DNA of 32,000 bases, from NCBI RefSeq assembly GCF_003324675.1, contig NZ_CP030918.1:2340001-2372000 (forward strand), in the 5' to 3' direction. This DNA is from Paracoccus suum (lineage in GTDB: Bacteria; Pseudomonadota; Alphaproteobacteria; Rhodobacterales; Rhodobacteraceae). Positions 20,563 through 32,000 of the stretch are shown here, in pieces. Below the pieces are notes generated by a model. The model had not been told where the DNA came from, ran no database searches, and was given only the letters and a program-made list of their open reading frames with translations. Within the stretch, counting starts at the first letter, position 1. Each line of letters begins with the position of its first letter. A program made the position numbers and the translations under genes.

Positions 20563-21294
20563 ATGACCGATCCCGCCCGCGCACCGCATATTCTTGTCGT
20601 CGACGATCATCGTGAAATCCGCGATGCGGTGACGCGCTACCTTGAAAAGAACGGCATGCGCGCGAGCGCCGCCAGGGACGTGCCCGAAATGGACGCGGCG
20701 CTCCGCGCGGGCCGCTTCGATCTCGTCGTGCTCGACGTGATGATGCCGGGGGAAGACGGGCTGTCGGCGGCGCGTCGGCTGGCTGCGGCAGGCGGTCCAC
20801 CGGTGCTGATGCTCAGCGCGCTTGGCGAGGATACCGACCGGATCGTGGGGCTCGAGGTCGGCGCCGACGACTACCTGGTGAAGCCCTTCAACCCGCGCGA
20901 GCTGCTGGCCCGGGTGAAGGCGATCCTGCGTCGCTCCGACCGGCCCGAGCCGCTGGCGGGCGCGCTTGGCGGGCGCAAGCTGACCTTCGCGGGATGGGTG
21001 CTGGACACCGACACGCGCGCGCTGACGCACGAGGACGGGCTCGAGGTCTCGCTCACCACGGCGGAGTTCAAACTGCTGACGGCCTTCCTCGAACGGCCGC
21101 GCTTCGTGCTGTCGCGCGACCAGCTGCTCGACATCACCAGCGGGCGCACGGCGGATGTCTTCGACCGGACCATAGACAATCAGGTGAGCCGCCTGCGCCG
21201 CAAGATCGAAGATGATCCGGCGCATCCTCAGATCATCGCGACGATCCGGTCGGGCGGCTACAGCCTTGCCGCCGACGTCCGCGAGGTGACGTGA
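20563..21294 (+). CDS. OmpR-family response regulator
   Basis: The start is MTDPARAPHILVVDDHREIRDAV (ATG 20563). The receiver motifs are DLVVLDVMMPGEDG and ADDYLVKPF. The winged helix reads TTAEFKLLTAFLERPRFVLSRDQLLD...IDNQVSRLRRKIE...IATIRSGGYSL. Confidence 0.9.
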   Translation: MTDPARAPHILVVDDHREIRDAVTRYLEKNGMRASAARDVPEMDAALRAGRFDLVVLDVMMPGEDGLSAARRLAAAGGPPVLMLSALGEDTDRIVGLEVGADDYLVKPFNPRELLARVKAILRRSDRPEPLAGALGGRKLTFAGWVLDTDTRALTHEDGLEVSLTTAEFKLLTAFLERPRFVLSRDQLLDITSGRTADVFDRTIDNQVSRLRRKIEDDPAHPQIIATIRSGGYSLAADVREVT

Positions 21295-22661
21295 TGCGTC
21301 TCGTCCCCCGCAGCCTGCTCGGCCAATTGGCGCTACTGATCCTCGGGGCCTTCCTGGCTGCGCAGGCGATCAGCATCTGGCTCTTCGCCGACGAACGCGG
21401 CGCGGCGATCCGCGCGGCACAACGGTTCGAGACGGTCGAACGTGCTGAAGCGGTGGCCCGCGCGCTCGATGCGGCGCCAACCGAGAGCCAGGAGAGCATC
21501 CTCGCAGCGGTGAACTCCCGCCTTGTCCGGTTCAGCGTGGGCGATGGGCCCTTAGTCGAGACAGGGCGCATGGAGTTGCCGGCGCTCGAAGGCGGCGACA
21601 TCCGCGCGACGGAAATCACCGTGTCGCCGCATGATGGACAGCCCGCAGAGCCGCCCGCCGCATTCGCCTGGCTGCACGAGCGGATGCGCGCGGCGGGTGT
21701 CGCGCCGGTGGAGTTCCGGATTTCGATCCCGCTTGGCGAGGGCGACTGGCTCAATGTCCAAGCCCGGTTCCAGAGGCCGGACATCCAGGCGCCGCCCGCG
21801 CTCATGGGCGCCACGCTTCTGTCGCTGGCGCTGCTGATGGCGGCGCTCTGGTTCGGGCTAGGACGGATCACCAGGCCGCTCCGGCAGCTTGCGGATGCCG
21901 CGGACGGGTTAGGCCTCGATGCGCCCGCTCCCAAGATGCCAAGGCACGGCCCGCGCGAGGTGCGCGCCCTGTCCGACGCACTGGGGCGCATGCATGCGCG
22001 CCTTACGGCCATGATCGCGGATCGAACCCGGATGCTTGCCGCGCTCGGCCACGACCTGCGTTCTCCCATCACGGCGCTGCGGGTCCGCGCGGAGATGGTC
22101 GATGATGACGAGACGCGCGAACGGATGGCCGCCACGCTCGAAGAAATGCAGGAGATGGTGGACTCGACGCTGGCCTACGCGCGAGGCGTCTCCACCGACC
22201 AGCCGATGGAGACGTGCGATCTTTCCCTTCTCGTGGGCGAGCTCGCGGACGAGCTCTCCGAGACGGGTCCGCAGATCGCCGTGTTATCATCGGAACCGGT
22301 CAGGGCCGAGGTCCGCCGCACGGCGATCCGGCGCGCCCTGCGCAACCTGATGGAGAACGCGCAGCGCTACGGCCGCGGGGCGCGGGTGTCGGTCACGCGG
22401 GTTGGCGATCGCGCGGAGATGCGGATCGAGGACGATGGTCCCGGCATCCCGGAGCAGGATCTGGACAAGGTCTTCGACCCCTTCACCCGGCTCGAGACGT
22501 CACGCTCGCGCGAGACGGGCGGTATCGGCCTCGGCCTGCCCATCGCGCGGGCCATCCTGCGCGCCCATGGCGGCGACGTGGTCCTGTCGAATCGCGCAGA
22601 GGGCGGGTTGCGGGCGACGGTGCAACTGCCGCTGTCACATTTCCGTCGATCGGAAACATGA
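21291..22661 (+). CDS. EnvZ-like sensor histidine kinase (2 TM, HAMP, HisKA, HATPase_c)
   Basis: The start overlaps the response-regulator stop (GTGATG). It carries H-box LAALGHDLRSPITAL, N-box LRNLMENAQRYG, G1 DDGPGIP and G2 GGIGLGLPIARAI. A periplasmic loop of about 150 aa lies between the two TM segments. Confidence 0.9.
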   Translation: MMRLVPRSLLGQLALLILGAFLAAQAISIWLFADERGAAIRAAQRFETVERAEAVARALDAAPTESQESILAAVNSRLVRFSVGDGPLVETGRMELPALEGGDIRATEITVSPHDGQPAEPPAAFAWLHERMRAAGVAPVEFRISIPLGEGDWLNVQARFQRPDIQAPPALMGATLLSLALLMAALWFGLGRITRPLRQLADAADGLGLDAPAPKMPRHGPREVRALSDALGRMHARLTAMIADRTRMLAALGHDLRSPITALRVRAEMVDDDETRERMAATLEEMQEMVDSTLAYARGVSTDQPMETCDLSLLVGELADELSETGPQIAVLSSEPVRAEVRRTAIRRALRNLMENAQRYGRGARVSVTRVGDRAEMRIEDDGPGIPEQDLDKVFDPFTRLETSRSRETGGIGLGLPIARAILRAHGGDVVLSNRAEGGLRATVQLPLSHFRRSET

Positions 22662-22835
22662 CGGTTGCCGCTGGCATCCCCAGTGCGGTTCGGCCACGTA
22701 CCGCCCGAGATGACGTGGTCGCCGTGTTTCAGTACCGCCAGGCGCACCCCCGGCCGTAGGGACGAAAGAGCCAAGCCGCAAAGGGACGACGGTGCCGAAG
22801 CGACTTCTCCGTGGCTTTGCCGATCAACCGGCACG

Positions 22836-23195
22836 TCAGCCCGCCGCTACCGCCTTGGGTGCGCCCGTGGCCATATCGGTGCCGGTGTAGGGCAGACCGG
22901 CCTGCTTCCATGCGCCGAAGCCGCCCTCCATATGCGCGAGTGGCGACAGTCCCGCCGCCAGCGCGATCTCGGCTATCTTGCCTGACCGGGCGCCCGAGCC
23001 GCAATGCAACACGATACGCTTGCCGTCCTGTGTGGGCAGTGCTTCGGGACGGAAGAACGCCATGGGCATCAGCAGTGCCCCATCAATATGCTCCATCATG
23101 TATTCGGGCGGCGTGCGTACATCGATCAATACGATCTCGTGCGCGTCGAGCGCCGCCTTAACTTGTTCCGGAGTCCAGTTTTCGAGTTGTGCCAT
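22836..23195 (-). CDS. Single-domain rhodanese (sulfurtransferase)
   Basis: The 119-aa product has an active-site loop HCGSGARSG within VLIDVRTPPEY...IVLHCGSGARS...GGFGAWKQAGLP. Its start lies 2 nt after the upstream MBL gene stop. Confidence 0.85.
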   Translation of the reverse strand: MAQLENWTPEQVKAALDAHEIVLIDVRTPPEYMMEHIDGALLMPMAFFRPEALPTQDGKRIVLHCGSGARSGKIAEIALAAGLSPLAHMEGGFGAWKQAGLPYTGTDMATGAPKAVAAG

Positions 23196-23197
23196 GA

Positions 23198-24097
23198 TCA
23201 GAACCTGTTCGCCGGTATCTTGAAGTAGCTGTTTCCGTCACCCTCCGGTTCCGGCAGGCGGCCGCCCCGAAGATTGAACTGCAGCGCATGCAGCATCCGG
23301 TCGGGTAGGTTGAGTGTCGCGTCTCGCGCCTCGCGGACCTTCACGTATTCGTCTTTCGGAACGCCGCCCCCCAGGTGCTTGTTCGACGCCTTCTGCTCGG
23401 CGACTGTACTTTCCCAAGCCGGACCATCGCGGCCCTTGGCGCCGTAGTCGTGGCCAATGAAAATGCGATGCTCGTCTGGCAGCGCGAGGATCGCCATCAG
23501 CGAGTCGTAGAGCATGGCGGCCGATCCGCCGGGGAAGTCGGCGCGGGCGGTTCCGCTGTCAGGCTGCATGAACGTGTCATGCGCGAAGATCGCGTCGCCC
23601 ACCACATAGGTGATCGAGCCGAGAGTGTGGCCGGGCGACAGCATCACGCGCACGTCGATTTCGCCCACGCGGAACGTGTCGCCCTCGGCGAAGAGCCGAT
23701 CGAAATCGGCCTCCGGGTCGAATGCGTCCGGCGTGTTGTAGAAGTCGCGCCAGAGTTCTGCGATCTCGCGCACCTTCTCGCCGATTGCGTTGGGCGCGCC
23801 GGTCTTCTCCTTGAGATAGGCGGCCGCCATCAGGTGGTCGGCATGGGGGTGCGTGTCGAGGATCCATTCGAGTGTCAGACCCTCGCGCTCGATCCAGTCG
23901 AGCGCCCAGTCGGCACATTCGGTCGAGGTGTGCGCGCGGGCGGGATTGAAGTCGAGAACCACGTCGATCAGCGCGCATTTCTTCGTCGCCGGGTCGATGC
24001 AGATGTACTGGCAGCTGCCCGAGGCCTCGTCGTAGAAACCGACGACATCGGGGCTTCCAGGTCCACGGGATGCGCTTTTCGAATGCGGGATCGTCAT
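23198..24097 (-). CDS. MBL-fold persulfide dioxygenase-like protein, paralogue 1
   Basis: The start is MTIPHSKS.. (ATG 24097, after AAGGAAAGGA). It carries the metal motif DTHPHADHL plus SPGHTLGS, GTARADFPGG and IGHDYG. Length is about 299 aa. The ORF-track N-terminal extension runs into the sulP 3' end. Confidence 0.8.
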   Translation of the reverse strand: MTIPHSKSASRGPGSPDVVGFYDEASGSCQYICIDPATKKCALIDVVLDFNPARAHTSTECADWALDWIEREGLTLEWILDTHPHADHLMAAAYLKEKTGAPNAIGEKVREIAELWRDFYNTPDAFDPEADFDRLFAEGDTFRVGEIDVRVMLSPGHTLGSITYVVGDAIFAHDTFMQPDSGTARADFPGGSAAMLYDSLMAILALPDEHRIFIGHDYGAKGRDGPAWESTVAEQKASNKHLGGGVPKDEYVKVREARDATLNLPDRMLHALQFNLRGGRLPEPEGDGNSYFKIPANRF

Positions 24098-24116
24098 GCA
24101 GTCCTTTCCTTTCAGG

Positions 24117-25856
24117 TCATTCTGCGGCTTTGGCCGGATCGGCCGGTTGGGTGAGCGCCTTCCAGGCGTCATACTGGGACAGGAAGACGCGGCCATTGAG
24201 TTGGTCGAGGAAGTGCGTCGTCCTGAGGCGGTCCATCACCGGACCCTTCACTTCCGATAGGTGCAGTCCGACCCCAAGATCCGTGAGTCTGTGATTGATC
24301 GCCTCCAGACTTTCGAGGGCAGAGTAGTCGATCTCGTTTACCGCGGAGCACATAAGGATCACGTGGCGCAGCGACTGACCGTCGACCACGCGATCCTGGA
24401 TCAGATCCTCGAGGAACCGGGCGTTCACGAAGTAGAGGCTCTCGTCCACACGCAGGGCGAGGATCTCCGGATGCGTTTCGACTTCATGCCGGTTGATGTT
24501 CCGGAAATGGTTCGTTCCGGGAACCAGCCCGACCTCGGCGACATGCGGTTTGGACGTCTTGTAGAGGTGCAGCGCGATGGAGAGGATGACGCCGGAGGCC
24601 ACGCCGATCTCGACTCCCAGCGTCAGGGTCAGCAGAATCGTGGCAGTGACCGCCGCGAAATCGGCGCGTGAGTACGACCAGGTCTTCTTCAGGATCGAGA
24701 AGTCGACGAGGCTGAGCACGGCGACGACGATTGTGGCGGCCAGCGTCGCGTTGGGAAGGTAATAGACCAGCGGCGTCAGGGCGAGCGCGGCAATCGCGAG
24801 GCCGATCGCGGTAAAGGCGCCGGCAGCCGGCGTTTCGGCGCCCGCGTCGAAGTTCACGACCGAGCGCGCGAACCCGCCGGTGACGGGATAGCCGCCGGTG
24901 AAGGCCGCGCCCAGATTCGCAGCGCCGAGGCCGATGAGTTCCTGGTTCGGGTCGATGCGCTGACGCTTCTTGGCAGCGAGCGTCTGGGCGACGGAAATGG
25001 ACTCCACGAAGCCGATGATGGAGATCAGGATCGCCGGGATTGCCAGTTGGCGGATCAGCTCGGGTGCGAGACCGGGCATGGTCAGCGGCGGCAGGGACTG
25101 TGGCACCTCGCCGACGATGGAGACGCCGCGCTCGGCGAGACCGAAAGCCCAAACCGCGAGTGTCGTGACCACGACTGCCGCCACGGGCCCCGCCTTGGTG
25201 ACTATGTCGGCCAGAAGCGGACCTGCGCCGATCTTGCGCAGGAGCGGCTTCAGTCCCTTGCGCACCCAGAAAAGAAATGCCGTCGCCGTGACGCCTATGA
25301 CCACCGTTATCGGATTGATCTGCCCCAGATTCGAGACAAGCGCACCGACCATCTCGATCAGCGTGTGACCGCTCGCCTCGATCCCGAGGATATGCTTGAG
25401 CTGGCTCGTCGCGATCAGGATGCCCGAAGCAGTGATGAACCCGGCGATCACTGGATGGCTGAGGAAATTTGCCAGAAATCCCAGCCGGAAGACGCCGAGC
25501 AGCAACAGGAAGCCACCGGAAAGCCCCGCGAGCGTCAGCGCTGCGACGGCATAGCCCGCGGTGCCCTGCTCGGCGACCTGACCGACGGCGGAGGCGGTCA
25601 GGAGCGACACGACCGCCACAGGCCCCACAGCGAGCGCGCGGGACGTGCCGAAGACCGCGTAGAGCAGGATCGGCGCGATCGAGGCGTAGATCCCGGCTTC
25701 GGGCGGCAAGCCTGCCAGAAGCGCATAGGCCAGCGACTGCGGGATCAGCATGATCGTCACGATCACCGCCGCCACGAGATCGTTCGTGAGCGCCGATCGG
25801 TTGTATTGCCGGCCCCACCTGAGGATCGGAAAATAGCTGGCAAGTCTTGGGATCAT
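24117..25856 (-). CDS. SulP-family anion transporter with C-terminal STAS domain
   Basis: The N-terminus reads MIPRLASYFPILRWGRQYNRSALTNDLVAAVIVTIMLIPQSLAYALLAGLPPEAGIYAS, and GAANLGAAFTGGYPVTGGFARSVVN is also present. The STAS tail reads HVILMCSAVNEIDYSALESLE...LHLSEVKGPVMDRL. Length is 579 aa. Confidence 0.9.
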   Translation of the reverse strand: MIPRLASYFPILRWGRQYNRSALTNDLVAAVIVTIMLIPQSLAYALLAGLPPEAGIYASIAPILLYAVFGTSRALAVGPVAVVSLLTASAVGQVAEQGTAGYAVAALTLAGLSGGFLLLLGVFRLGFLANFLSHPVIAGFITASGILIATSQLKHILGIEASGHTLIEMVGALVSNLGQINPITVVIGVTATAFLFWVRKGLKPLLRKIGAGPLLADIVTKAGPVAAVVVTTLAVWAFGLAERGVSIVGEVPQSLPPLTMPGLAPELIRQLAIPAILISIIGFVESISVAQTLAAKKRQRIDPNQELIGLGAANLGAAFTGGYPVTGGFARSVVNFDAGAETPAAGAFTAIGLAIAALALTPLVYYLPNATLAATIVVAVLSLVDFSILKKTWSYSRADFAAVTATILLTLTLGVEIGVASGVILSIALHLYKTSKPHVAEVGLVPGTNHFRNINRHEVETHPEILALRVDESLYFVNARFLEDLIQDRVVDGQSLRHVILMCSAVNEIDYSALESLEAINHRLTDLGVGLHLSEVKGPVMDRLRTTHFLDQLNGRVFLSQYDAWKALTQPADPAKAAE

Positions 25857-25881
25857 TGCGGGTGAGCTCTTGGGGTTTGGG

Positions 25882-25910
25882 GAACGGGGCGCAACCGGTG
25901 CGCCCCGTTC
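25882..25910. other. Strong intercistronic stem-loop between sqr and sulP
   Basis: GAACGGGGCGCA-ACCGG-TGCGCCCCGTTC forms a 12-bp perfect stem with a 5-nt loop. It sits in the 100-nt gap between the sqr stop (25957) and the sulP start (25856). No T/U tract is present on either strand. Confidence 0.5.
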
Positions 25911-25956
25911 GTGGACGCGTGCTCAGCGGGAGGAGAGGCCGGCGCGCGTTCTCGTC

Positions 25957-27636
25957 TTACTCGGCAGCGACCTCAAGCTTCGCGGGCTTCGCCATCCACT
26001 CGCGCCCCCGAAGCATCGCCTGCCAGTAGATCGGCGGCAGCATCTTCTCCTTCAGAAACCACGCGGCCCGGCTCGGCTTCGTTCCGTCGATCACAAAAGA
26101 GGGGAAGCTCGGCATTACCACGCCGCCATAGCCGAACTCGGCCAGGACAATCTTGCCGCGCTCGACCGTCAGCGGGCACGAGCCGTAGCCGTCGTATTGC
26201 GCCACGGCCGAGCGACCGGCGATGTCGGCAACGATGTTCTCGGCAACCGTGGGCGCCTGCTTGCGCGCCGCGGCGGCCGTCTTGGCGTTGGGCGCGTTCA
26301 TCACGTCGCCGAGCGCCCAGATATTGTCGAAACTCTTGTGCCGCAGTGTGGCCTGATCGACATCGACCCAGCCCGCCTGATCGGCCAAGGGCGAGACGCG
26401 GATGAAATCCGGTGCGGTCTGCGGCGGGCAGACATGCATCATGTCGAATTCCATCTCGACGCGCCGGGGCTCCTTCTCCGGCTCCTTGACTTCGAAGGTG
26501 GCTTTTTTTGCCGGTCCGTCCACCGCCACGAGATTGTGGAAGAAGTCGAGCGTCGCGTCGTACTTCTTCACGTATTCCATCAAGGCCGGCACGTAGTCCT
26601 TCACGCCGAAGAGAACGCCGCCCGCGTTGCAGAAGTGAATGTCGATATCCTTCAGCCGCCCGGAGCGGTGCCAGTGGTCGGCCGAGAGATACATCGCCTT
26701 CTGCGGCGCGCCGGCGCATTTGATCGGCATCGGCGGCTGCGTGAAGACCGCGGTCCCGCCGCGCATCTCCTGCACCAGTTGCCAGGTATAGGGCGCGAGG
26801 TCGTAGCGATAGTTCGAAGTCACGCCGTTTCGTCCGAGCGTCTCGACAAGGCCCTCGATCTTGCCCCAGTCCAATTTAAGGCCAGGACAAACGACAAGCC
26901 GATCGTATTTCACCACGCGGCAGCCATCGAGGATGACAGCGTTGTTCTGCGGCTCGAACGCAGCGACTGCGGCCTTGATCCAGGTGACATCTTTCGGGAT
27001 CAGGCTGCCCATGGTCTTGGCGGTTTCCTGCGCCTCGAATATGCCGCCACCGACCATCGTCCAGCCGGGCTGATAGTAATGAATGTCGGCAGGATCGATG
27101 ATCGCGATCTCGAGGCCCGGCTTGCGCGCCTTGAGGCTGGCAGCGACCGCGATGCCGCCGGCGCCCGCGCCGACGATCACCACCTTGTAATGAGCGTCGC
27201 CGGTGTCGGTCGGCGTCTTCCCGCCATTGGCGACGCGGCGCGCGACACCGTTCATGTCATAGCCTGCCGCCTTCGTCATGGCGAGGATTTCGGAAACCGG
27301 CCGCTTTTTCGCCTCGTGCAGCGACCAGAGTGTCGCCGAGCGTGTGCCAGTCCGGCAGTAGGCCAGAACCGGGCGTTGCACCTCTGCCAGCGCCTGACCG
27401 AAGGCAGCAACATCGTCGTCAGTTACCATCCCGGACTGAACCGGGACATATCTCGCCTCGATCCCCTCGGCCTTGGCAGCGGCCTCGATCTCCTCGAAGC
27501 TCGGCTGATCCGCGCCTTCCCCGTCGGGGCGGTTGCAGATGATTGCGCGATAACCAGCCGACTTGATCGCGGCCATGTCCGAGGCTGCGATCTGCGGGGA
27601 CACCGTGACTTTCGGCGAGATTTCTTTCAGTTCCAT
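25957..27636 (-). CDS. sqr: Fusion of a DUF442 (PTP/rhodanese-like sulfurtransferase) domain to a type II (SQOR-like) sulfide:quinone oxidoreductase
   Basis: The start is MELKEISPK (ATG 27636, after GGGAGGA). Residues 1 to about 135 read ...YRAIICNRPDGEGADQP...VLAYCRTGTRSATLW, which is the DUF442 Cys loop. A Rossmann motif KVVIVGAGAGGIAVA follows. The blocks PIKCAGAPQKAMYL, HVCPPQ, AGWVDVD, NIWALGDV..PNAKTAAA, YDGYGSCPL and PIYWQAMLRG match mitochondrial-type SQR block for block. Confidence 0.85.
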   Translation of the reverse strand: MELKEISPKVTVSPQIAASDMAAIKSAGYRAIICNRPDGEGADQPSFEEIEAAAKAEGIEARYVPVQSGMVTDDDVAAFGQALAEVQRPVLAYCRTGTRSATLWSLHEAKKRPVSEILAMTKAAGYDMNGVARRVANGGKTPTDTGDAHYKVVIVGAGAGGIAVAASLKARKPGLEIAIIDPADIHYYQPGWTMVGGGIFEAQETAKTMGSLIPKDVTWIKAAVAAFEPQNNAVILDGCRVVKYDRLVVCPGLKLDWGKIEGLVETLGRNGVTSNYRYDLAPYTWQLVQEMRGGTAVFTQPPMPIKCAGAPQKAMYLSADHWHRSGRLKDIDIHFCNAGGVLFGVKDYVPALMEYVKKYDATLDFFHNLVAVDGPAKKATFEVKEPEKEPRRVEMEFDMMHVCPPQTAPDFIRVSPLADQAGWVDVDQATLRHKSFDNIWALGDVMNAPNAKTAAAARKQAPTVAENIVADIAGRSAVAQYDGYGSCPLTVERGKIVLAEFGYGGVVMPSFPSFVIDGTKPSRAAWFLKEKMLPPIYWQAMLRGREWMAKPAKLEVAAE

Positions 27637-27715
27637 TGTTGCATTCCTCCCGGTTGGTTTTGATCGAAGACGGTCCACCGGCGCCGAAACGCCGCCATCA
27701 CACCTGCGGACTTCT

Positions 27716-28207
27716 TCAAGCAGATGGTTCTTCGTCTTGTATGACTGAAACCATTTTCGCGCTGTACGCCTGTTCACCGATGCGCTCGATCAACTCCAGT
27801 TGCAGCTCCAACCAGGCCTTATGGCCTTCCTCATCCATTGCGATCTTTTCGAAGAGCATGCGCGATCCGACATCGTTGGCTTCATAGGCCTGTCGGGCCG
27901 CGCTGAGATAGAATTCAACGGCTTCCTCTTCATCGGCGAGGTCCGCCTTGAACATGTCTGTCAGGGTTTCGGCTCGCTTGGGTGATTTCGCGAAAGCGAT
28001 CTCAGGCGTTCCTTTCAAGAACATGATACGCTCGATGAACAGGTCGGAGTGCCCGATTTCTTCTGCCTGTTCCTCGCGCATCTTGTCTGCAAGCAAATTG
28101 AGTCCCCAATCGTCGAGGACATGCGCATGCAATTGATATTGATGCGCGGCGCTCATTTCCATCTGAAGCGCCTTGTTCAGGTTTTCCACCGTCTTGTTGT
28201 TGGACAT
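27716..28207 (-). CDS. Bacterioferritin-like (ferritin-like di-iron) protein
   Basis: The start is MSNNKTVENLNKAL (ATG 28207, after AAAGGAGGA). The 163-aa product aligns by eye with Bfr along its whole length: LNKxL..E..A..QY, W.L, the EEIGH ferroxidase E/H, FIERIMFLKG, ADEEEAVEFY and DEEGHKAWLE. Confidence 0.8.
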   Translation of the reverse strand: MSNNKTVENLNKALQMEMSAAHQYQLHAHVLDDWGLNLLADKMREEQAEEIGHSDLFIERIMFLKGTPEIAFAKSPKRAETLTDMFKADLADEEEAVEFYLSAARQAYEANDVGSRMLFEKIAMDEEGHKAWLELQLELIERIGEQAYSAKMVSVIQDEEPSA

Positions 28208-28244
28208 GGAATCCTCCTTTCGCCGTGTTGCCGCTGTTCTATTC

Positions 28245-29129
28245 TCAAAGACCGTTGACTGGCACCTTGAGCACGCGATTGCCGTCCTTGTCGGTAGGCA
28301 CTTTGCCCGCGCGCATATTGACCTGAAGCGACGGGATGATGAGCCTGGGCATGGCGAGCTGCGCATCGCGCTCGGTCCGGAACTTGATGAACTCGTCACG
28401 TGTCTTGCCGGCGCCTACGTGGATGTTGTGGGCCCTTTCATCGGCGACGGTCGTCTCCCAGCGGATTTCGCGCCCGTTCGGGCCGTAGTCGTGACACATG
28501 AAGAGCCGCGTCTCGTCGGGCAGCGACAGCACTTTCTGGATAGAATCGTAGAGTGTACCGGCGTCGCCGCCGGGGAAGTCCGCCCGCGCCGATCCGCCAT
28601 CCGGCATGAAGAGCGTGTCGCCGACGAAGGCCGCGTCACCCATCACGTGTGTCATACAGGCAGGCGTGTGGCCGGGCGTCGCCATTGCGACCGCCTGCAT
28701 GTTTCCCACCATGTAGGTGTCGCCATCCTCGAACAGTGCGTCGAACTGCGATCCGTCGCGCTGGAACTCGGTACCCTCGTTGAACACCTTGCCGAAGGTG
28801 TCCTGCACTACCATGATTCTGGCGCCGATGCCGATCTTTCCGCCCAGTTTCTGCTGCAGGTACGGCGCAGCGCTCAGATGGTCGGCGTGAACGTGGGTCT
28901 CGATGATCCACTCCACCGACAGGCCCATTTCCTCCACCTTGCGGATGAGCATGTCGGCATGGTCGTATGTGATACGCCCTGCCGCATAATCAAAGTCCAT
29001 GACGCTGTCGACGATCGCGCAGGCGTTCGACGCAGGATCCTTCACAATGTAGCTGATGGTGTTGGTCGCGTCGTCGAAGAACGCATGGACATCGGGCTTG
29101 ACGTCCAGATTGATCGGATAGCGAGTCAT
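28245..29129 (-). CDS. MBL-fold persulfide dioxygenase-like protein, paralogue 2
   Basis: The start is MTRYPINLDVKPD (ATG 29129, after AAAGGAGAA). It carries the metal motif ETHVHADHL plus TPGHTPAC, GSARADFPGG and MCHDYG. At about 294 aa it has the same architecture as the 23198-24097 product. Confidence 0.8.
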   Translation of the reverse strand: MTRYPINLDVKPDVHAFFDDATNTISYIVKDPASNACAIVDSVMDFDYAAGRITYDHADMLIRKVEEMGLSVEWIIETHVHADHLSAAPYLQQKLGGKIGIGARIMVVQDTFGKVFNEGTEFQRDGSQFDALFEDGDTYMVGNMQAVAMATPGHTPACMTHVMGDAAFVGDTLFMPDGGSARADFPGGDAGTLYDSIQKVLSLPDETRLFMCHDYGPNGREIRWETTVADERAHNIHVGAGKTRDEFIKFRTERDAQLAMPRLIIPSLQVNMRAGKVPTDKDGNRVLKVPVNGL

Positions 29130-29151
29130 GAAATTCTCCTTTTGCAGACCG

Positions 29152-29589
29152 TCAGGCGGTTGCGCGCCGGGCGCTCGCGCCTCTGGACTGGAGGAACCTG
29201 GCGAGGAAGATGCCCCCGACCACTGCTGCGATGAAGGCGAACACTTCCCACCGGCCGGTCCCGAGCGCGGGCAACGCTCCGCCCGGGCAAAAACCGGCGA
29301 TGCCCCAGCCGATACCGAACACAGCCGAGCCGCCCAGAAGGCGGGCATCGACGGTGCGGCTGATCGGCACCTGAAACGCCTCCGCCAGAACGGGCGCGGG
29401 CCGCCCGAAGACCAGCCGGTAGCCGATGAAGGTCGTCACCAGCGCTCCGCCCATCACGAAGATGAGCGACGGGTCCCAGCTGCCCGCGATGTCAAAGAAG
29501 TTCAGTACCTTGGCCGGGTTCGCCATGCCGGAGAGTGCGATTCCGGTGCCGAACACCAGTCCGATGATGTAGGCGGCGATCAAACGCAT
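29152..29589 (-). CDS. Half-size YeeE/YedE-family sulfur-compound transport membrane protein
   Basis: The 145-aa product begins MRLIAAYIIGLVFGTGIALSGMANPAKVLNFFD and contains GIGWGIAGFCPGG, the conserved Cys-containing re-entrant motif of YeeE/YedE halves. Confidence 0.8.
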   Translation of the reverse strand: MRLIAAYIIGLVFGTGIALSGMANPAKVLNFFDIAGSWDPSLIFVMGGALVTTFIGYRLVFGRPAPVLAEAFQVPISRTVDARLLGGSAVFGIGWGIAGFCPGGALPALGTGRWEVFAFIAAVVGGIFLARFLQSRGASARRATA

Positions 29590-29592
29590 GGC

Positions 29593-30024
29593 TCAGGCTC
29601 CCAGAACGTGACGAACGACGTAGACCGTGGCGAAGGTCGTGATCATGAAGGTGAGCGTCGCGGCGACCGACCTGACGCTCAAGCGCGCCATGCCACAGAC
29701 GCCATGACCGGACGTGCAGCCGGACCCGAAGGTCACGCCAATGCCGACGAGCAATCCGCCGCCGATCAGCATCGCTGTCGAGACGGGCACCTGGACCGCC
29801 GGCATCTCACCGGTGATCACGAGCAGCGCAAGCGGCCCGCTCACCATGCCCAGCAGCACCGCGCCGCGCCACGCGAACTCGCTGCCCGAGGACGGTGTGA
29901 GCAAGCCGGCAAGAATGCCGGTCGCGCCCATGATCCGGCCGAGAAACAGCATCAGCAACGTGGCCGCGAGACCGATCAGAACGCCGCCGCCGAGGGAGGC
30001 CCAGGGTGTAAACACGGTCTCCAT
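29593..30024 (-). CDS. Half-size YeeE/YedE-family sulfur-compound transport membrane protein
   Basis: The start is METVFTPWASLGGGVLIGL (ATG 30024). It contains the motif GVTFGSGCTSGHGVCGMARLS. It is about 143 aa and lies 3 nt upstream of its partner half. Confidence 0.8.
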   Translation of the reverse strand: METVFTPWASLGGGVLIGLAATLLMLFLGRIMGATGILAGLLTPSSGSEFAWRGAVLLGMVSGPLALLVITGEMPAVQVPVSTAMLIGGGLLVGIGVTFGSGCTSGHGVCGMARLSVRSVAATLTFMITTFATVYVVRHVLGA

Positions 30025-30028
30025 CGGC

Positions 30029-30241
30029 TCAGGCCCGGCAGGTCTTGACGCCGAGCACGGAATAGACCGGGCAGACACGGGTCACGGCAACGACCAGCAT
30101 GACGAGCCCCACGACAGCCGCGCCGTATTTGAGCAGCGCGCCTTCGAAGAGCGGCAGACCGCTCAGAAACGCGAGATAGAGAAGCGCGAGGCCAAGGGCG
30201 GCCCGAAAGATACGATCGACGGTTCCAACATTGACGCTCAC
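30029..30241 (-). CDS. DUF2892 (YgaP-membrane-domain-like) small membrane protein
   Basis: The GTG start at 30241 follows GGAGGA. The 70-aa product carries the family hallmarks N-terminal GxxDRxxR (GTVDRIFRAALG) and C-terminal CPxYxxxG (RVCPVYSVLGVKT). Confidence 0.75.
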   Translation of the reverse strand: MSVNVGTVDRIFRAALGLALLYLAFLSGLPLFEGALLKYGAAVVGLVMLVVAVTRVCPVYSVLGVKTCRA

Positions 30242-30296
30242 GGCAGATCCTCCAGGATAAAAGCTGTCTGACGAATATAGCTTTGCCGCACAAGCT

Positions 30297-30315
30297 TCAG
30301 TGACATTGTCACTGA
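30297..30315. promoter_or_regulatory. Perfect 9-1-9 palindrome TCAGTGACA-T-TGTCACTGA upstream of the sulfur operon (candidate operator)
   Basis: It was read directly from the sequence. Its centre at 30306 is 65 bp upstream of the DUF2892 start codon. Sixteen of the 19 nt recur at 31547-31562. Confidence 0.6.
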
Positions 30316-30361
30316 GCGCAGGAAAAGTCCGTCGCCGGAGGCCGCGTGCGGGCCGTGTCGA

Positions 30362-31027
30362 TCAATCGCTCTCGGCGAGTCGCTGCAGGCTTTCGCGGGC
30401 GAGCAGCCGGACCCGACCGCGCGCCTGGCTCACGAACCCGCGTTTCTGGAAGTCCTGCAGGACGCGGGACACGACTTCGCGCGCCGTGCCCAGCTCCCGG
30501 GCGAGGTCGTCATGCGTCGCCGATACTTCGACAGCCGTGCCGGAGAGAGCGAGCAGCCTTGCCGCGAGGCGCACGTCGATCCGTCCGAAGGCCACCTCGT
30601 CCACGACATGCAGGAGATCCAGCAGACGGCGCGAATAGGCCGCAAACACGAACTTGCGAAAGGCCGGTTCCTCCGCCGCCAGCAGATCGAAGGTCTCTTG
30701 CGAGAGCGCAACGGCAACGAGCGCCGTTTCCGCCACCCCCTCGGCGTTGTAGGCCTCTTCGGCCAGCATGCAGGCCGTCGTCAGCACGCAGCTTTCACCC
30801 GCCTCCACCCGGTATAGCACGATCTCCCGCCCCGACTCGGCCGTTTGCGAGACCCGGAGCGTTCCCTCGACCAGAAACATCAGGTTGTCGGGACGATTAT
30901 CGGGGCTGAAGACGGTCTGGCCGCGCGCGTAGCGTGCGACCTGTGCACTGGCGAGCAGCCTGTCGCGCACCGTCCGGGGAAGACCGCGCGTACCCTGGAA
31001 CCGTTCGGTCCAGTCGCCGATGCTCAT
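30362..31027 (-). CDS. Crp/Fnr-family transcriptional regulator
   Basis: The start MSIGDWTERF (ATG 31027) overlaps the rrf2 stop (ATGA). The cNMP-binding-like barrel reads GQTVFSPDNRPDNLMFLVEGTLRV...GREIVLYRVEAGESCV. The C-terminal HTH reads THDDLARELGTAREVVSRVLQDFQKRGFV. It has no FNR-type N-terminal Cys cluster. Confidence 0.85.
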   Translation of the reverse strand: MSIGDWTERFQGTRGLPRTVRDRLLASAQVARYARGQTVFSPDNRPDNLMFLVEGTLRVSQTAESGREIVLYRVEAGESCVLTTACMLAEEAYNAEGVAETALVAVALSQETFDLLAAEEPAFRKFVFAAYSRRLLDLLHVVDEVAFGRIDVRLAARLLALSGTAVEVSATHDDLARELGTAREVVSRVLQDFQKRGFVSQARGRVRLLARESLQRLAESD

Positions 31028-31494
31028 GTCGCGCTCCGCGTCGGCGCCGGGGCGCCTTTCTCGACGGTCGCGATGCGCCCCAAGAGCTGATCGCGATTGG
31101 CGGAAATGTCCGCCAGCGTGAGATCGTCGAGGACCGCCATGAACGCCCGGGTGGCCTCGTGGAGGCCCCGGGACAGCCGGCAAACCCCGATGAGGGGGCA
31201 TGTGTTCGACGCCGGATTGAAACATTCGACAACATCGAGCGGCCCCTCGGTCAACCTGATGACGTCACCCACGACGATCTCCTCGGCCGGACACGCAAGA
31301 CGGAACCCGCCGCCCCGCCCGCGCTGGGTCTTGACGAAGCCGGCGCGCCCCAGCTCGTGGACGATCTTCACGATGTGCGGCCGGGCCAGCCCATGCACCC
31401 GCACCACGTCATCGACGCGGATGAGATCCGGCGCCCTGAGTGCGGCAAGTTGAAGCGATCGAAGCGCGTAGTTGGAATATGCCGTGAGCTTCAT
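31024..31494 (-). CDS. Rrf2-family (NsrR/IscR/RirA-like) Fe-S-type transcriptional regulator
   Basis: The N-terminal wHTH reads MKLTAYSNYALRSLQLAAL...ARPHIVKIVHELGRAGFVKTQRGRGGGFRLA. Three clustered Cys are present in ECFNPASNTCPLIGVC, with spacing C-x7-C-x5-C. Confidence 0.85.
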   Translation of the reverse strand: MKLTAYSNYALRSLQLAALRAPDLIRVDDVVRVHGLARPHIVKIVHELGRAGFVKTQRGRGGGFRLACPAEEIVVGDVIRLTEGPLDVVECFNPASNTCPLIGVCRLSRGLHEATRAFMAVLDDLTLADISANRDQLLGRIATVEKGAPAPTRSAT

Positions 31495-31543
31495 CTATGT
31501 CTCCCGATGAAACTTCTACCCAGCATATAACTTTTTTGCAAGC

Positions 31544-31562
31544 TGGGTGACAATGTCACTGA
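31544..31562. promoter_or_regulatory. Second copy of the GTGACA-N-TGTCACTGA operator-like palindrome, in the rrf2/prx divergent promoter
   Basis: The plus strand reads TGGGTGACAATGTCACTGA and the minus strand reads TCAGTGACATTGTCACCCA, so 16 of 19 nt are identical to 30297-30315. The same CAAGCT lies immediately 5' of both sites on the plus strand. The centre at 31553 is 59 bp from the rrf2 start and 61 bp from the prx start. Confidence 0.55.
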
Positions 31563-31613
31563 ACGGCACGGCGAGGCGCGGTATCTGCCGGGCAACCCAC
31601 GAAAGGAAACATC

Positions 31614-32000
31614 ATGCCTCTGCTTCTCGGAGATATCGTTCCAGACTTCACCGCTGACACGACGCTCGGACCGATCTCGTTCCATGACTGGATCGGGGAT
31701 GACTGGGCCTTCTTCTTCAGCCACCCGGCGGACTTCACGCCGGTCTGCACCACCGAGATGGGCCGGACATCGCAACTCAGCGCCGAGTTCGACAAGCGCG
31801 GCGTCAAGCCGATCGGGCTCAGCACCGACACGGTCGACGAGCATCTGAAATGGATCGAGGATGTGAACGACACGCAGAACACGAGGCTGCGATTTCCCAT
31901 CGTCGCGGACCCGGATCTGAAGATCGCGCGGCTCTACGACATGATCCATCCGGCCCAGTCCGAGACCGCCGCCGTGCGCTCGGTCTTCATCATTGACAAC
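31614..32000 (+). CDS. 1-Cys peroxiredoxin (Prx6-type); the 3' end runs off the window
   Basis: It is not in the ORF track because it has no stop inside the window. The ATG at 31614 follows GAAAGGAAAC. My translation is MPLLLGDIVPDFTADTTLGPISFHDWIGDDWAFFFSHPADFTPVCTTEMGRTSQLSAEFDKRGVKPIGLSTD...RSVFIIDN, with the canonical PVCTTE peroxidatic-Cys motif. The 152-aa minus-strand ORF at 31491-31949 is its antisense shadow. Confidence 0.85.
   Translation, partial: MPLLLGDIVPDFTADTTLGPISFHDWIGDDWAFFFSHPADFTPVCTTEMGRTSQLSAEFDKRGVKPIGLSTDTVDEHLKWIEDVNDTQNTRLRFPIVADPDLKIARLYDMIHPAQSETAAVRSVFIIDN

What the first reader, a model, noticed from the sequence alone, without database searches (positions are those of the whole stretch)
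22836..30315. Nine-gene co-directional sulfide/persulfide oxidation and sulfur-trafficking operon of unusual composition
Seen: nine minus-strand genes run from 30241 to 22836 with gaps of only 2-100 nt. In order they are DUF2892, two half-size YeeE/YedE, MBL/PDO paralogue 2, a bacterioferritin-like protein, DUF442::type II SQR, SulP-STAS, MBL/PDO paralogue 1 and rhodanese.

Established: SQR plus persulfide dioxygenase plus a rhodanese-type sulfurtransferase is the heterotrophic route from sulfide to sulfite/thiosulfate. YeeE/YedE proteins transport thiosulfate-like sulfur anions.

Inference: this is one self-contained detoxification/trafficking module. Its unusual parts are the duplicated dioxygenase, an iron-storage-like protein, a SulP carrier where a TauE-type sulfite exporter might be expected, and three separate Cys-loop sulfur carriers. 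No ArsR-type (BigR/SqrR/CstR) or sigma54 FisR-type persulfide sensor is anywhere in the window.
Basis: partly seen in the sequence, partly recalled or inferred. Interest (0 to 1): 0.7.

Follow-up and report, generated by a model that had tools for sequence, protein, structure and literature searches.

The report
Sulfide-oxidation island with unrecognised Crp-type regulator
The nine genes are a real, widely shared and horizontally mobile sulfide-detoxification operon built from known enzyme families, and what is new is that it sits directly behind two overlooked regulator genes, one of which looks like a previously undescribed type of sulfide/persulfide sensor.

Summary
Nine minus-strand genes (30241..22836; gaps 4, 3, 22, 37, 79, 100, 19, 2 nt) encode DUF2892, two half-size YeeE-type proteins, a type II PDO, a haem-less bacterioferritin-like protein, DUF442::type II SQR, SulP-STAS, a second PDO and a rhodanese.

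Both MBL proteins are persulfide dioxygenases, not glyoxalase II. The pathway reading is therefore supported.

The claim of a self-contained module with no sensor is not. Directly upstream on the same strand lie a translationally coupled Rrf2 gene (3-Cys, Fe-S type) and a Crp/Fnr-family gene. A 15-bp palindrome, AGTGACAnTGTCACT, occurs in the window only before DUF2892 and before rrf2.

Eighty genomes were retrieved using the Crp-type regulator alone. In 76 of them it sits immediately upstream of a DUF2892/YeeE/PDO(/SQR/SulP) operon, usually with the same palindrome in between. All orthologues carry an invariant CX5C in the effector pocket.

The core composition is common in Alphaproteobacteria. 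Bfr, PDO1 and rhodanese are rarer add-ons. The module is mobile: it is on Paracoccus and Chelativorans plasmids, and homology ends at about 22853.

The enzymes are known kinds. The regulator is a candidate new class of sulfide/persulfide sensor and is untested.

The parts
31614..32000 (+). 5' part of a 1-Cys/Prx6-type peroxiredoxin gene. It is divergent from rrf2 and runs off the window.
   Evidence: Translation MPLLLGDIVPDFTADTT...FTPVCTTE. The full-length orthologue in L002 hits NF009668 peroxiredoxin above its cut-off. In related loci it is followed by an MCO or a hypothetical gene and then cydA-cydB.
31546..31560 (.). Palindromic operator copy 1 (AGTGACATTGTCACC). It is centred in the 119-nt prx/rrf2 divergent intergenic region, about 60 nt from each start codon.
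   Evidence: It is present in most loci that have rrf2.
31509..31536 (-). AT-rich element (AAAAGTTATAT...AGAAGTTT) overlapping the -10-like TATAT of the rrf2 promoter. Candidate Rrf2 operator.
   Evidence: It is a conserved block in the alignment of 28 prx/rrf2 intergenic regions. The assignment to Rrf2 is an inference.
31024..31494 (-). Rrf2-family regulator, 156 aa, with Cys91/Cys99/Cys105 (Fe-S type spacing).
   Evidence: PDB NsrR 5N07 at E 4e-22. NCBIfam RirA 116 bits and NsrR 112 bits are both below their cut-offs, while rrf2_super is above. The stop codon overlaps the crp start (ATGA).
30362..31027 (-). Crp/Fnr-family regulator, 221 aa, with invariant G-E-S-C80-VLTTA-C86 in the effector pocket and a CRP-like recognition helix (REVVSR).
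   Evidence: Pfam cNMP_binding + HTH_Crp_2; family alignment; all 82 orthologues carry CX5C; alignment to E. coli CRP; genomic linkage.
30299..30313 (.). Palindromic operator copy 2 (AGTGACAATGTCACT). Its centre is 65 nt upstream of the DUF2892 GTG.
   Evidence: These are the only two sites in the window, against 0.2 expected. The box is conserved where flanks diverge. It is present in about 67/80 loci with or without rrf2.
30257..30284 (-). AT-rich element (AAAGCTATATTCGTCAGACAGCTTTTAT) containing the -10-like TATAT. Candidate Rrf2 operator on the operon promoter.
   Evidence: An A..TATA element at this position occurs in 25/28 loci with rrf2 against 3/46 without (Fisher 2.5e-13, not corrected for phylogeny).
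30029..30241 (-). DUF2892 / YgaP-like transmembrane protein, 70 aa, GTG start, Cys57 and Cys68 invariant.
   Evidence: It is the first gene after the regulator, even beside a 45%-identical regulator.
29593..30024 (-). Half-size YeeE/YedE-type membrane protein (Sulf_transp), 143 aa, Cys103 and Cys110 invariant.
29152..29589 (-). Second half-size YeeE-type protein (DUF6691), 145 aa, Cys101 invariant.
28245..29129 (-). Persulfide dioxygenase PDO2 (type II), 294 aa. This is the copy conserved throughout the family.
   Evidence: PDB 9G8T 1e-107, 4YSK 5e-103. Present in 59/63 loci.
27716..28207 (-). Bacterioferritin-like protein, 163 aa. The di-iron ferroxidase ligands are kept; the haem ligand Met52 is replaced by Ile.
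   Evidence: PDB 3GVY at 4e-31 with alignment. TIGR00754 scores 115.1 against a cut-off of 125.55. No island copy has Met at this position.
25957..27636 (-). DUF442 (rhodanese-like, Cys94) fused to a type II sulfide:quinone oxidoreductase (Cys307, Cys487), 559 aa.
   Evidence: The same architecture is found in SQRCp, with C94/C310/C490 (PMC9163753).
25882..25910 (-). 12-bp GC-rich RNA hairpin in the 100-nt sqr-sulP gap, with no U-tract.
   Evidence: The gap folds at -41.1 kcal/mol, z -3.3. Hairpins of different sequence sit at the same junction in other loci.
24117..25856 (-). SulP-family anion transporter with a C-terminal STAS domain, 579 aa.
   Evidence: It follows PDO in 49/63 loci, including 11 that lack SQR.
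23198..24097 (-). Persulfide dioxygenase PDO1 (type II), 299 aa, 44% identical to PDO2.
22836..23195 (-). Single-domain rhodanese, 119 aa, active-site loop HCGSGARS.
   Evidence: the loop is read.
22853..22854 (.). Left boundary of the shared module. Homology to every related island stops here.
   Evidence: blastn of the window against the loci. The left 22.8 kb matches unrelated plasmid regions only weakly.

Best explanation
The nine genes are the structural operon of a larger, horizontally mobile 'sulfide-stress island'. In this window the island runs from about 22854 to beyond 32000.

Shown by homology:
- The type II SQR oxidises H2S to enzyme-bound sulfane sulfur and passes electrons to quinone.
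- Its fused DUF442 domain (Cys94) and the separate rhodanese handle the sulfane sulfur.
- Two type II PDOs oxidise glutathione persulfide to sulfite.

Inferred:
- SulP exports the oxyanion product (sulfite or thiosulfate). It tracks PDO even where SQR is absent.
- The two YeeE halves form one YeeE-like channel that, with the Cys-bearing DUF2892 protein, moves thiosulfate or polysulfide across the membrane. The direction is unknown.
- The haem-less ferritin-like protein buffers iron, either for the Fe(II)-dependent PDO or against sulfide-driven Fenton chemistry.

Regulation (inferred from comparative genomics, not tested):
- The Crp/Fnr-family protein encoded just upstream binds the palindrome TGTGAC-N3-GTCACA through a CRP-like R-E-x-x-x-R recognition helix. 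The box overlaps the -35 region of the operon promoter and the divergent prx/rrf2 promoters.
- Its two invariant cysteines (CX5C) lie where CRP binds cAMP. They are proposed to react with persulfide or polysulfide, as the Cys pairs of SqrR, BigR and CstR do, and so switch the protein.
- The co-transcribed Fe-S-type Rrf2 protein is proposed to add a second layer through an AT-rich site over the -10 region. It would couple the operon to the divergent peroxiredoxin (and, in relatives, cytochrome bd) unit that keeps respiration going in sulfide.
For: Enzymes:
- Searches give family assignments with E-values of 1e-74 to 1e-107 to solved PDOs and human SQOR.
- The catalytic Cys are aligned and conserved.
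- The role of DUF442 in SQRCp was shown experimentally (PMC9163753).

One unit:
- Gaps are 2-100 nt and the scan finds no terminators.
- Gene order is conserved in plasmids and genomes.

Regulator linkage:
- Eighty loci were retrieved using only the regulator as query. In 76 the regulator is immediately upstream of and co-directional with a DUF2892/YeeE/PDO operon.
- A regulator only 45% identical is still followed by a DUF2892 gene with the palindrome at the junction. One at 50% identity is followed by a YeeE half.

Operator:
- There are only two sites in the window, against 0.2 expected.
- There are 79 exact GTGAC-N3-GTCAC matches in about 1.6 Mb of loci, where my own estimate from base frequencies expects about 1.5. 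All but one lie at these promoters.
- The box is present whether or not rrf2 is there, so it goes with the Crp-type protein.
- The recognition helix keeps CRP's R180/E181/R185 equivalents, which fits GTGA half-sites.

Sensor residues:
- CX5C is invariant in 19 sequences found by a pattern-independent search and in all 82 loci. 79/82 proteins have exactly those two Cys.
- Among 35-52%-identical family representatives, Cys80 is kept in 147/151 and both Cys in 115/151.
- The pair maps to the cAMP phosphate-binding cassette, and CRP R82 has no counterpart.

Rrf2 layer:
- The AT-rich element occurs in 25/28 loci with rrf2 against 3/46 without.
- rrf2 co-occurs with prx and cydAB.

Literature:
- A 2026 review lists dedicated sulfide/RSS sensors only in the CsoR, ArsR and Fis families (PMC13467558).
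- Searches found no paper linking Crp/Fnr or Rrf2 regulators to sqr/pdo.
Against: - There is no expression, binding or chemical data for any protein of this island. The signal, and whether the regulator activates or represses, are guesses.
- The box-to-(-10) spacing (23-28 nt from the centre) is a little short for a textbook class II activator. It is also compatible with a repressor over the -35.
- The half-site spacing is N5, not CRP's N6.
- One of the two peptide patterns used in the genome scan contains the first Cys, so 'all loci have CX5C' is partly circular. and the 12 AGQSC loci are independent of that pattern.
- The Rrf2/AT-rich correlation is not corrected for shared ancestry.
- An NsrR-like Rrf2, cytochrome bd, peroxiredoxin and ferritin/Dps would equally suit a nitric oxide or oxidative-stress response.
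- A conserved hairpin between sqr and sulP could split the nine genes into two differently expressed halves.
- Four of 80 regulators are orphans.
- cydAB is seen only in relatives, because the window ends inside prx.
Confidence: 0.62

Rival explanations
1. One reading: a self-contained detoxification operon with no dedicated sensor, expressed constitutively or under a distant global regulator. The upstream Rrf2 and Crp genes would be unrelated neighbours.
For: No ArsR, CsoR or sigma-54 regulator is in the window. No consensus sigma-70 promoter was detected.
Against: The regulator and operon are adjacent in 76/80 genomes chosen by the regulator alone. A palindrome shared by both promoters is conserved while flanks diverge.
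Confidence: 0.06
2. The island is mainly a nitric-oxide / oxidative-stress (or low-oxygen) response. An NsrR-like Fe-S Rrf2 and a Dnr/NnrR-like Crp protein would sense NO or O2 and switch on cytochrome bd, peroxiredoxin and ferritin/Dps. The sulfur genes would ride along because NO and sulfide poison the same oxidases.
For: The best solved relative of the Rrf2 is NsrR. Prx, cydAB, an MCO and Bfr or Dps are all present in the island. Cytochrome bd is known to resist NO as well as sulfide (reference list of PMC9774590).
Against: The Crp-type regulator keeps its PDO operon in about 40 loci that have no rrf2, prx or cydAB nearby. Its deep-core partners are DUF2892 and YeeE, which are sulfur-handling families. 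The Rrf2 scores below the NsrR cut-off and has Asn, not Asp, at position 8. The Crp protein has no FNR-type N-terminal Cys cluster.
Confidence: 0.14
3. A sulfur-acquisition module. The YeeE-type channel and SulP would import thiosulfate or sulfate, and rhodanese and PDO would convert thiosulfate-derived sulfane sulfur to sulfite for assimilation, under a sulfur-status regulator.
For: YeeE/TsuA is a thiosulfate importer (weak NF052577 hit). SulP meets the 'sulfate permease' subfamily model.
Against: SQR is present in 39/63 operons and is a catabolic, quinone-reducing enzyme. The module is linked with cytochrome bd and peroxiredoxin. No cys assimilation genes are in the module.
Confidence: 0.08
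4. The palindrome is the Rrf2 protein's operator and Rrf2 is the real sensor, for example through sulfide attack on its Fe-S cluster. The Crp-type protein would have another target.
For: Rrf2 proteins bind odd-centred palindromes. A sulfide-sensing Fe-S cluster has just been described in NreB (PMC13478379). The box lies between prx and rrf2.
Against: The box is found in front of the operon in about 40 loci with no rrf2 nearby. It is also found beside a 45%-identical Crp regulator on contigs where no adjacent Rrf2 gene was identified. The half-site GTGA fits the CRP-type helix.
Confidence: 0.1

Closest known systems
Cupriavidus pinatubonensis JMP134 fisR-pdo-sqr sulfide-oxidation operon (SQRCp / PDOCp)
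   Same: It has the same SQR architecture: an N-terminal DUF442 rhodanese-like domain with Cys94 fused to a type II SQR with two catalytic Cys. It has the same partnership with a glutathione-persulfide dioxygenase and the same heterotrophic sulfide to sulfite/thiosulfate chemistry (PMC9163753).
   Different: Its regulator is the sigma-54 activator FisR. That paper lists the fusion in Acinetobacter, Burkholderia, Gluconobacter, Pseudomonas and Cupriavidus, not in the lineages seen here. It has no YeeE halves, DUF2892, SulP, ferritin-like gene or second PDO reported with it.
bigR operon of Xylella fastidiosa / Agrobacterium tumefaciens (BigR, Blh, membrane proteins)
   Same: The DUF442 and PDO modules are the same. 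Both window PDOs match the dioxygenase half of Blh NF040641, and the SQR N-terminus matches its sulfurtransferase half. It serves sulfide detoxification that protects aerobic respiration (PMC5823870). From memory, that operon also carries small YeeE/DUF395-type membrane proteins; I did not check this here.
   Different: There DUF442 is fused to the PDO and not to an SQR, there is no SQR in the operon, and the sensor is the ArsR-type two-Cys repressor BigR.
SqrR (Rhodobacter capsulatus) / CstR (Staphylococcus aureus) persulfide-sensing repressors
   Same: The proposed logic is the same: a dedicated regulator next to sqr/pdo-type genes, with a pair of conserved cysteines that could be bridged by sulfane sulfur (general description in PMC13467558).
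   Different: The folds differ (ArsR and CsoR against the Crp/Fnr cNMP-binding fold). The Cys pair here is CX5C within one effector pocket. The chemistry here is untested.
Escherichia coli CRP
   Same: It has the two-domain fold, and the recognition-helix residues equivalent to R180/E181/R185 are kept. The half-site is TGTGA.
   Different: Identity is 24%. The cAMP-contacting R82 has no counterpart, and two Cys occupy the cassette. Half-site spacing is N5, not N6. It is a local operon regulator rather than a global one.
NsrR (Streptomyces coelicolor 5N07; Bacillus-type C-X7-C-X5-C spacing)
   Same: It is the best solved relative of the island's Rrf2. Three C-terminal Cys are in Fe-S-ligand positions.
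   Different: It scores below both the NsrR and RirA family cut-offs and has Asn8 instead of the Asp8 cluster ligand. Its neighbours are prx/cydAB and a sulfide operon, not hmp-type NO genes.
Escherichia coli ygaV-ygaP
   Same: A sulfide-responsive regulator is paired with a membrane protein carrying the YgaP-like TM (DUF2892) domain (Pfam name; YgaV as an SqrR homologue in PMC13467558).
   Different: YgaP carries its own rhodanese domain and YgaV is ArsR-type. Here DUF2892 stands alone as a 70-aa protein and the regulator is Crp-type.

Membership tests
Type II sulfide:quinone oxidoreductase (SQOR-like) | Full-length similarity to SQOR, with the FAD-binding N-terminus | tested here: met
   Human SQOR 6OI5/6MO6 at E 2.5e-95 over residues 149-547. 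Pyr_redox_2 starts at VVIVGAGAGG.
Type II sulfide:quinone oxidoreductase (SQOR-like) | Two redox-active cysteines (KCAGAPQK and SCPL motifs) | tested here: met
   Cys307 and Cys487 align to the human motifs and are invariant in 49 orthologues.
DUF442::SQR fusion (SQRCp type) | N-terminal DUF442/BLH_phosphatase domain with an active-site Cys in a C-X5-R loop | tested here: met
   PF04273 at 105 bits, TIGR01244 at 138 bits. YCRTGTRS with Cys94 is invariant. SQRCp uses Cys94.
Type II persulfide dioxygenase | Closer to solved PDOs than to glyoxalase II | tested here: met
   PDO2: 4YSK 5e-103 against GloB-type 2e-11. PDO1: 4YSK 3e-74 against 5e-11. GSH_gloB TIGR03413 scores 64-72 bits against a cut-off of 200.
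Type II persulfide dioxygenase | Mononuclear iron ligands (first His of HxHxDH, a later His, an Asp) | tested here: inconclusive
   THVHADH / PGHT / GDT in PDO2 and THPHADH / PGHT / HDT in PDO1 were read. I did not align them residue by residue to a structure.
Type II persulfide dioxygenase | Enzymatic oxidation of GSSH to sulfite | not testable with these tools
   Needs an enzyme assay.
Bacterioferritin (TIGR00754) | Score above the curated cut-off | tested here: not met
   115.1 bits against a cut-off of 125.55.
Bacterioferritin (TIGR00754) | Haem-ligating Met52 | tested here: not met
   Ile in the window, and Ile, Thr or Leu in all island copies.
Bacterioferritin (TIGR00754) | Di-iron ferroxidase ligands (E18, E51, H54, E94, E127, H130) | tested here: met
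   All six align with E. coli and R. sphaeroides Bfr.
SulP anion transporters | Sulfate_transp core plus C-terminal STAS, above the TIGR00815 cut-off | tested here: met
   449.8 bits against 380.45; Pfam 354 and 60 bits. The substrate was not tested.
YeeE/YedE (TsuA) thiosulfate transporter | Single polypeptide of about 330 aa with two homologous halves | tested here: not met
   There are two separate genes of 143 and 145 aa. NF052577 scores 30 bits against a cut-off of 400. A heterodimer that works like YeeE is an inference.
Known dedicated persulfide sensors (ArsR SqrR/BigR, CsoR CstR, sigma-54 FisR) | A regulator of one of these folds next to the operon | tested here: not met
   None is in the window or in the annotated plasmid islands next to the operon.
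Crp/Fnr superfamily | cNMP-binding-like domain plus C-terminal HTH_Crp | tested here: met
   PF00027 and PF13545. Foldseek places the model among CRP-family structures with probability 1.0.
FNR proper | N-terminal Cys cluster for a [4Fe-4S] centre | tested here: not met
   The only Cys are C80 and C86. The N-terminus is MSIGDWTERF.
cAMP-binding CRP | cAMP contacts E72/R82/S83 | tested here: not met
   R82 falls in an alignment gap and the cassette is replaced by SCVLTTACMLAEEAY. NF008732 scores 50 bits against a cut-off of 266.
NsrR | Score above the NF008240 cut-off, with three Cys plus Asp8 as cluster ligands | tested here: not met
   112 bits against 182. The three Cys are present, but position 8 is an invariant Asn.

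The most novel reading that the evidence does not exclude
The Crp/Fnr-family protein encoded at 31027-30362 would found a fourth structural class of dedicated sulfide/persulfide-sensing transcription factors, after the ArsR, CsoR and Fis/sigma-54 types. It would use a CX5C pair in the former cAMP pocket to read reactive sulfur species. It would control sqr/pdo/YeeE operons through a TGTGAC-N3-GTCACA box in hundreds of alphaproteobacterial species; at least 597 places were found in species-representative genomes. Where present, an Fe-S Rrf2 partner would tie sulfide oxidation to the sulfide-insensitive cytochrome bd branch.
Probability: 0.4. Interest if true: 0.8.

Novelty: new variant of a known kind. 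Interest (0 to 1): 0.6.

Why it matters
[quoted passage not shown] Its regulation is understood only through three sensor families. Marine Rhodobacterales (roseobacters), Paracoccus and several Hyphomicrobiales carry the pathway under a different, uncharacterised regulator.

If the Crp-type protein senses persulfide, it would explain how these abundant bacteria switch the pathway on. It would add a new sensor fold to reactive-sulfur biology. It would also give a simple, well-defined regulator and operator pair for biosensors.

The recurring links of PDO with SulP and with a haem-less ferritin give testable ideas about sulfite export and about iron handling during sulfide stress. Carriage on plasmids shows that sulfide tolerance is a transferable trait.

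Tried and rejected
- An exact-sequence look-up of the SQR protein found no record, so the source organism is not identified. The nearest DNA is a Hoeflea MAG at 91%.
- The consensus promoter/terminator scan found nothing in 22500-32000. This is uninformative for a high-GC alphaproteobacterium, and I give no transcription start site.
- Rfam found no known RNA family in the window.
- RedB of R. capsulatus was considered as the named relative of the Crp-type regulator. It is described as a global regulator with a non-palindromic AT-rich motif. Its sequence was not compared, and I dropped it as an explanation.
- The AlphaFold model and Foldseek returned only generic CRP-family neighbours. No coordinates are returned, so the Cys-Cys distance could not be measured.
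- The four 'orphan' regulators (L010, L020, L051, L078) were inspected by ORF listing only. No sulfur genes were apparent next to them, and one flank looks like an insertion. I did not pursue them.
- The idea that the palindrome belongs to Rrf2 was rejected because the box persists without rrf2.
- The idea that the two PDOs are a recent duplication was rejected. They are 44% identical, and PDO1-like copies occur independently in Roseovarius and Loktanella loci.

Full report
**1. Observation**

The window carries nine consecutive minus-strand genes between 30241 and 22836. Pfam and NCBIfam assign them as follows:
- YgaP-like_TM/DUF2892
- a Sulf_transp half
- DUF6691
- an MBL-fold protein
- a ferritin/bfr-like protein
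- BLH_phosphatase(DUF442)+Pyr_redox_2
- Sulfate_transp+STAS
- a second MBL-fold protein
- a rhodanese

The mechanical ORF list over-extends five of them. I took starts from Shine-Dalgarno positions in the sequence and from the gene lengths annotated in two RefSeq plasmids. The intergenic gaps are then 4, 3, 22, 37, 79, 100, 19 and 2 nt.

**2.

- Both MBL proteins match the solved type II persulfide dioxygenases. PDO2 gives 9G8T 1e-107 and 4YSK/4YSL 5e-103. PDO1 gives 2e-79 and 3e-74. Glyoxalase II structures lie near 1e-11, and the GloB model scores far below its cut-off.
- PDO1 and PDO2 are 44% identical, so they are old paralogues.
- The SQR domain matches human SQOR at 2.5e-95, with both catalytic Cys motifs aligned. 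This makes it type II.
- Its N-terminal DUF442 carries the C-X5-R loop with Cys94. This is the architecture characterised for SQRCp of Cupriavidus pinatubonensis, where the domain restrains sulfane-sulfur accumulation (PMC9163753).
- The ferritin-like protein keeps all six ferroxidase ligands but has Ile in place of the haem ligand Met52. It scores just under the bacterioferritin cut-off. It is a haem-less Bfr-like protein.

**3.

Reading on from 30315 on the same strand gives two more genes:
- a Crp/Fnr-family gene (31027-30362; cNMP_binding + HTH_Crp_2)
- immediately before it, an Rrf2 gene (31494-31024) whose TGA overlaps the crp ATG

Divergent from rrf2, a peroxiredoxin gene starts at 31614 and runs off the window.

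A 15-bp palindrome, AGTGACAnTGTCACT, occurs exactly twice in the 32 kb, against 0.2 expected. One copy lies 65 nt upstream of the DUF2892 start. The other is centred in the prx/rrf2 intergenic region. In both places it is followed by a similar AGCTTG...TATAT promoter-like stretch.

No ArsR, CsoR or sigma-54 regulator exists elsewhere in the window.

**4. The module is shared and mobile**

Megablast finds the whole 11-gene stretch on plasmids of Paracoccus aminovorans, P. sediminicola, a Paracoccus sp. and Chelativorans sp. AA-79 at 84-92% identity.

In the annotated records the island continues beyond prx with a hypothetical or multicopper-oxidase gene and cydA-cydB, and it lies near transposase or recombinase genes.

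The Chelativorans copy has a Dps gene where this window has PDO2 and bfr. DUF6691 is still detectable there by tblastn, although RefSeq does not annotate it. A ferritin-superfamily protein is thus retained in kind.

Homology of the window to every related locus stops at about 22853, 17 nt past the rhodanese stop. The left 22.8 kb is unrelated. The best match is a Hoeflea MAG (91.4% over 9.15 kb). The source is therefore more likely a Hyphomicrobiales relative, or a plasmid, than a member of the Rhodobacterales.

**5. The regulator defines the operon**

The Crp-type protein belongs to a tight family. The 120 best clusters are all at least 68% identical and mostly 220-221 aa long. It carries an invariant AGESCVLTTACMLAEEAYNAEG segment and a TAREV(I/V)SR helix.

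A scan of 185,579 species-representative genomes, seeded only with this family, found at least 597 places. The 80 best were kept. I ran tblastn with the window's proteins against them. The results were:
- In 76/80 the regulator is directly upstream of, and co-directional with, a DUF2892/YeeE-halves/PDO operon.
- Among 63 loci with at least 7 kb of downstream sequence, PDO2 is present in 59, SulP in 49, DUF2892 in 48, SQR in 39, the YeeE halves in 36, a second PDO in 9, Bfr in 4 and the rhodanese in 1.
- SulP follows PDO in 11 loci that have no SQR.
- In Pikeienuella piscinae the operon is just DUF2892, the YeeE halves, PDO and a ferritin-like gene.

SulP and the ferritin-like gene therefore appear tied to PDO, that is to sulfite formation and an Fe(II) enzyme, rather than to SQR.

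The truly uncommon parts are Bfr, PDO1 and the rhodanese.

**6. The operator goes with the Crp-type protein**

- A GTGAC-N3-GTCAC box lies within about 110 nt downstream of the regulator's stop codon in roughly 67/80 loci, with or without rrf2.
- There are 79 exact matches in about 1.6 Mb of fetched loci, where my own estimate from base frequencies expects about 1.5. All but one lie at the operon promoter or upstream of rrf2 or crp.
- Roseovarius loci, where 1-3 kb is inserted between regulator and operon, have one box before the operon and one before the regulator itself.
- A regulator only 45% identical is followed by a DUF2892 gene with the box at the junction. One at 50% identity is followed by a YeeE half.
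- The recognition helix keeps the three base-contacting residues of E. coli CRP (REVVSR against RETVGR), which fits the GTGA half-site. The spacing is N5 rather than CRP's N6.

**7. Candidate sensing residues**

- All 82 orthologues carry G[E/D/Q]SC-X5-C, and 79 have no other cysteine.
- One of the two scan patterns includes the first Cys, so this is partly circular. The pattern-independent search gives the same result, as do the 12 loci retrieved through the other pattern.
- In a search of 1.84 billion cluster representatives, 303 clusters reach E of 1e-30 or better. Among the best 150 (35-52% identity), Cys80 is kept in 147/151 rows and both Cys in 115/151.
- Aligned to CRP, the pair sits in the cAMP phosphate-binding cassette, and CRP's R82 has no counterpart.
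- In the AlphaFold model this is the least confident segment (pLDDT about 58).

A thiol-based response to persulfide or polysulfide, like that of the Cys pairs of SqrR, BigR and CstR, is the most economical hypothesis. It is an inference only.

**8. The Rrf2 layer**

- The Rrf2 protein is closest to NsrR among solved structures. It scores below both the NsrR and RirA cut-offs, has C-X7-C-X5-C, and has an invariant Asn at position 8.
- It is present in about 29 of the 82 loci, nearly always with the divergent prx and/or cydAB.
- About 20 nt downstream of the palindrome, an AT-rich A..TATA element occurs in 25/28 loci with rrf2 against 3/46 without (Fisher 2.5e-13, not corrected for phylogeny). 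The same block is conserved upstream of rrf2.

I read this as a candidate Rrf2 operator over the -10 region. That would give dual control and couple sulfide oxidation to a peroxiredoxin and cytochrome bd unit. Cytochrome bd is the sulfide-insensitive oxidase (Forte 2016 and Korshunov 2016, as cited in PMC9774590).

**9. Other features**

- The 100-nt sqr-sulP gap holds a 12-bp GC hairpin without a U-tract. The gap folds at -41 kcal/mol, z -3.3. Hairpins of unrelated sequence sit at the same junction in other loci. This suggests a conserved intra-operon RNA element that could set different levels for the upstream and downstream genes.
- Invariant cysteines also mark DUF2892 (C57, C68), the YeeE halves (C103, C110; C101) and the SQR (C94, C307, C487).

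**10. Comparison with what is known**

The chemistry is that of the C. pinatubonensis fisR-pdo-sqr operon, the Xylella/Agrobacterium bigR-blh operon and the S. aureus cst operon. The difference lies in the accessory set and, above all, in the regulators.

A review dated August 2026 lists dedicated reactive-sulfur sensors only in the CsoR, ArsR and Fis families (PMC13467558). Four full-text searches found no paper connecting a Crp/Fnr or Rrf2 regulator with sqr or pdo. The library lacks most subscription journals, so prior description cannot be excluded.

**11. Verdict**

- The pathway interpretation is supported.
- The 'no sensor / self-contained' reading is not supported, and 'unusual composition' is only partly supported.
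- The structural genes are new members of known families in a common alphaproteobacterial arrangement.
- The interest lies in the conserved regulator and operator pair and its Rrf2/prx/cyt bd partner, which make a specific and readily testable hypothesis.
- Novelty is 'new variant of a known kind', and interest is 0.6.

Noticed in passing
window 25882-25910 (minus strand), sqr-sulP gap: There is a perfect 12-bp GC hairpin (GAACGGGGCGCA-CCGGT-TGCGCCCCGTTC) with no U-tract. Hairpins of different sequence occupy the same junction in Paracoccus, Silicimonas, Loktanella and Marivita loci. It may be an intra-operon attenuator or an mRNA-stabilising element.
   Followed up: partly
L001:10007-11328 (Chelativorans sp. 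AA-79 plasmid): In this otherwise 89-94% identical island, the PDO2 and bfr genes are replaced by a Dps-family gene. DUF6691 is unannotated in RefSeq but still detectable by tblastn. A ferritin-superfamily protein is swapped rather than lost.
   Followed up: partly
L011 and L012 (Paracoccus indicus IO390502, scaffold6): There are two copies of the regulator and operon module on one scaffold, about 245 kb apart. One has prx-cydAB, bfr and the YeeE halves. The other is a shorter rrf2-crp-DUF2892-PDO-SQR-SulP version.
   Followed up: no
window 30299-30313 and 31546-31560: The half-sites are CRP-like (TGTGA/TCACA) but spaced by 5 bp instead of the 6 bp of CRP sites. This implies a different dimer geometry or DNA bend.
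   Followed up: no
window 18776-22661: Just outside the module lie two secreted EF-hand proteins, a cytochrome b561 and a convergent OmpR-type response regulator/histidine kinase pair. A similar HlyD/FtsX/ABC plus two-component block lies on a Shinella plasmid (H21). None of these genes accompanies the island in any of the fetched related loci.
   Followed up: partly
L013, L014, L016, L023, L024 (Roseovarius): One to three kb of extra DNA separates the regulator from its operon. A second palindrome lies about 45 nt upstream of the regulator gene itself, which suggests autoregulation where rrf2 is absent.
   Followed up: no
L085/L086 (metagenome contigs): A regulator only 45% identical is followed by a 60-aa DUF2892 gene and then a sCache-HAMP-GAF-GGDEF diguanylate cyclase. 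This hints that the regulator/DUF2892 pair is the ancient core and may feed into c-di-GMP signalling in some lineages.
   Followed up: no
L001:5827-7317, L004 about 7258 (upstream of prx): A CueO-like multicopper oxidase sits between prx and cydA in the Chelativorans and Hoeflea versions. Paracoccus versions have a 143-aa secreted hypothetical protein at the same place.
   Followed up: no
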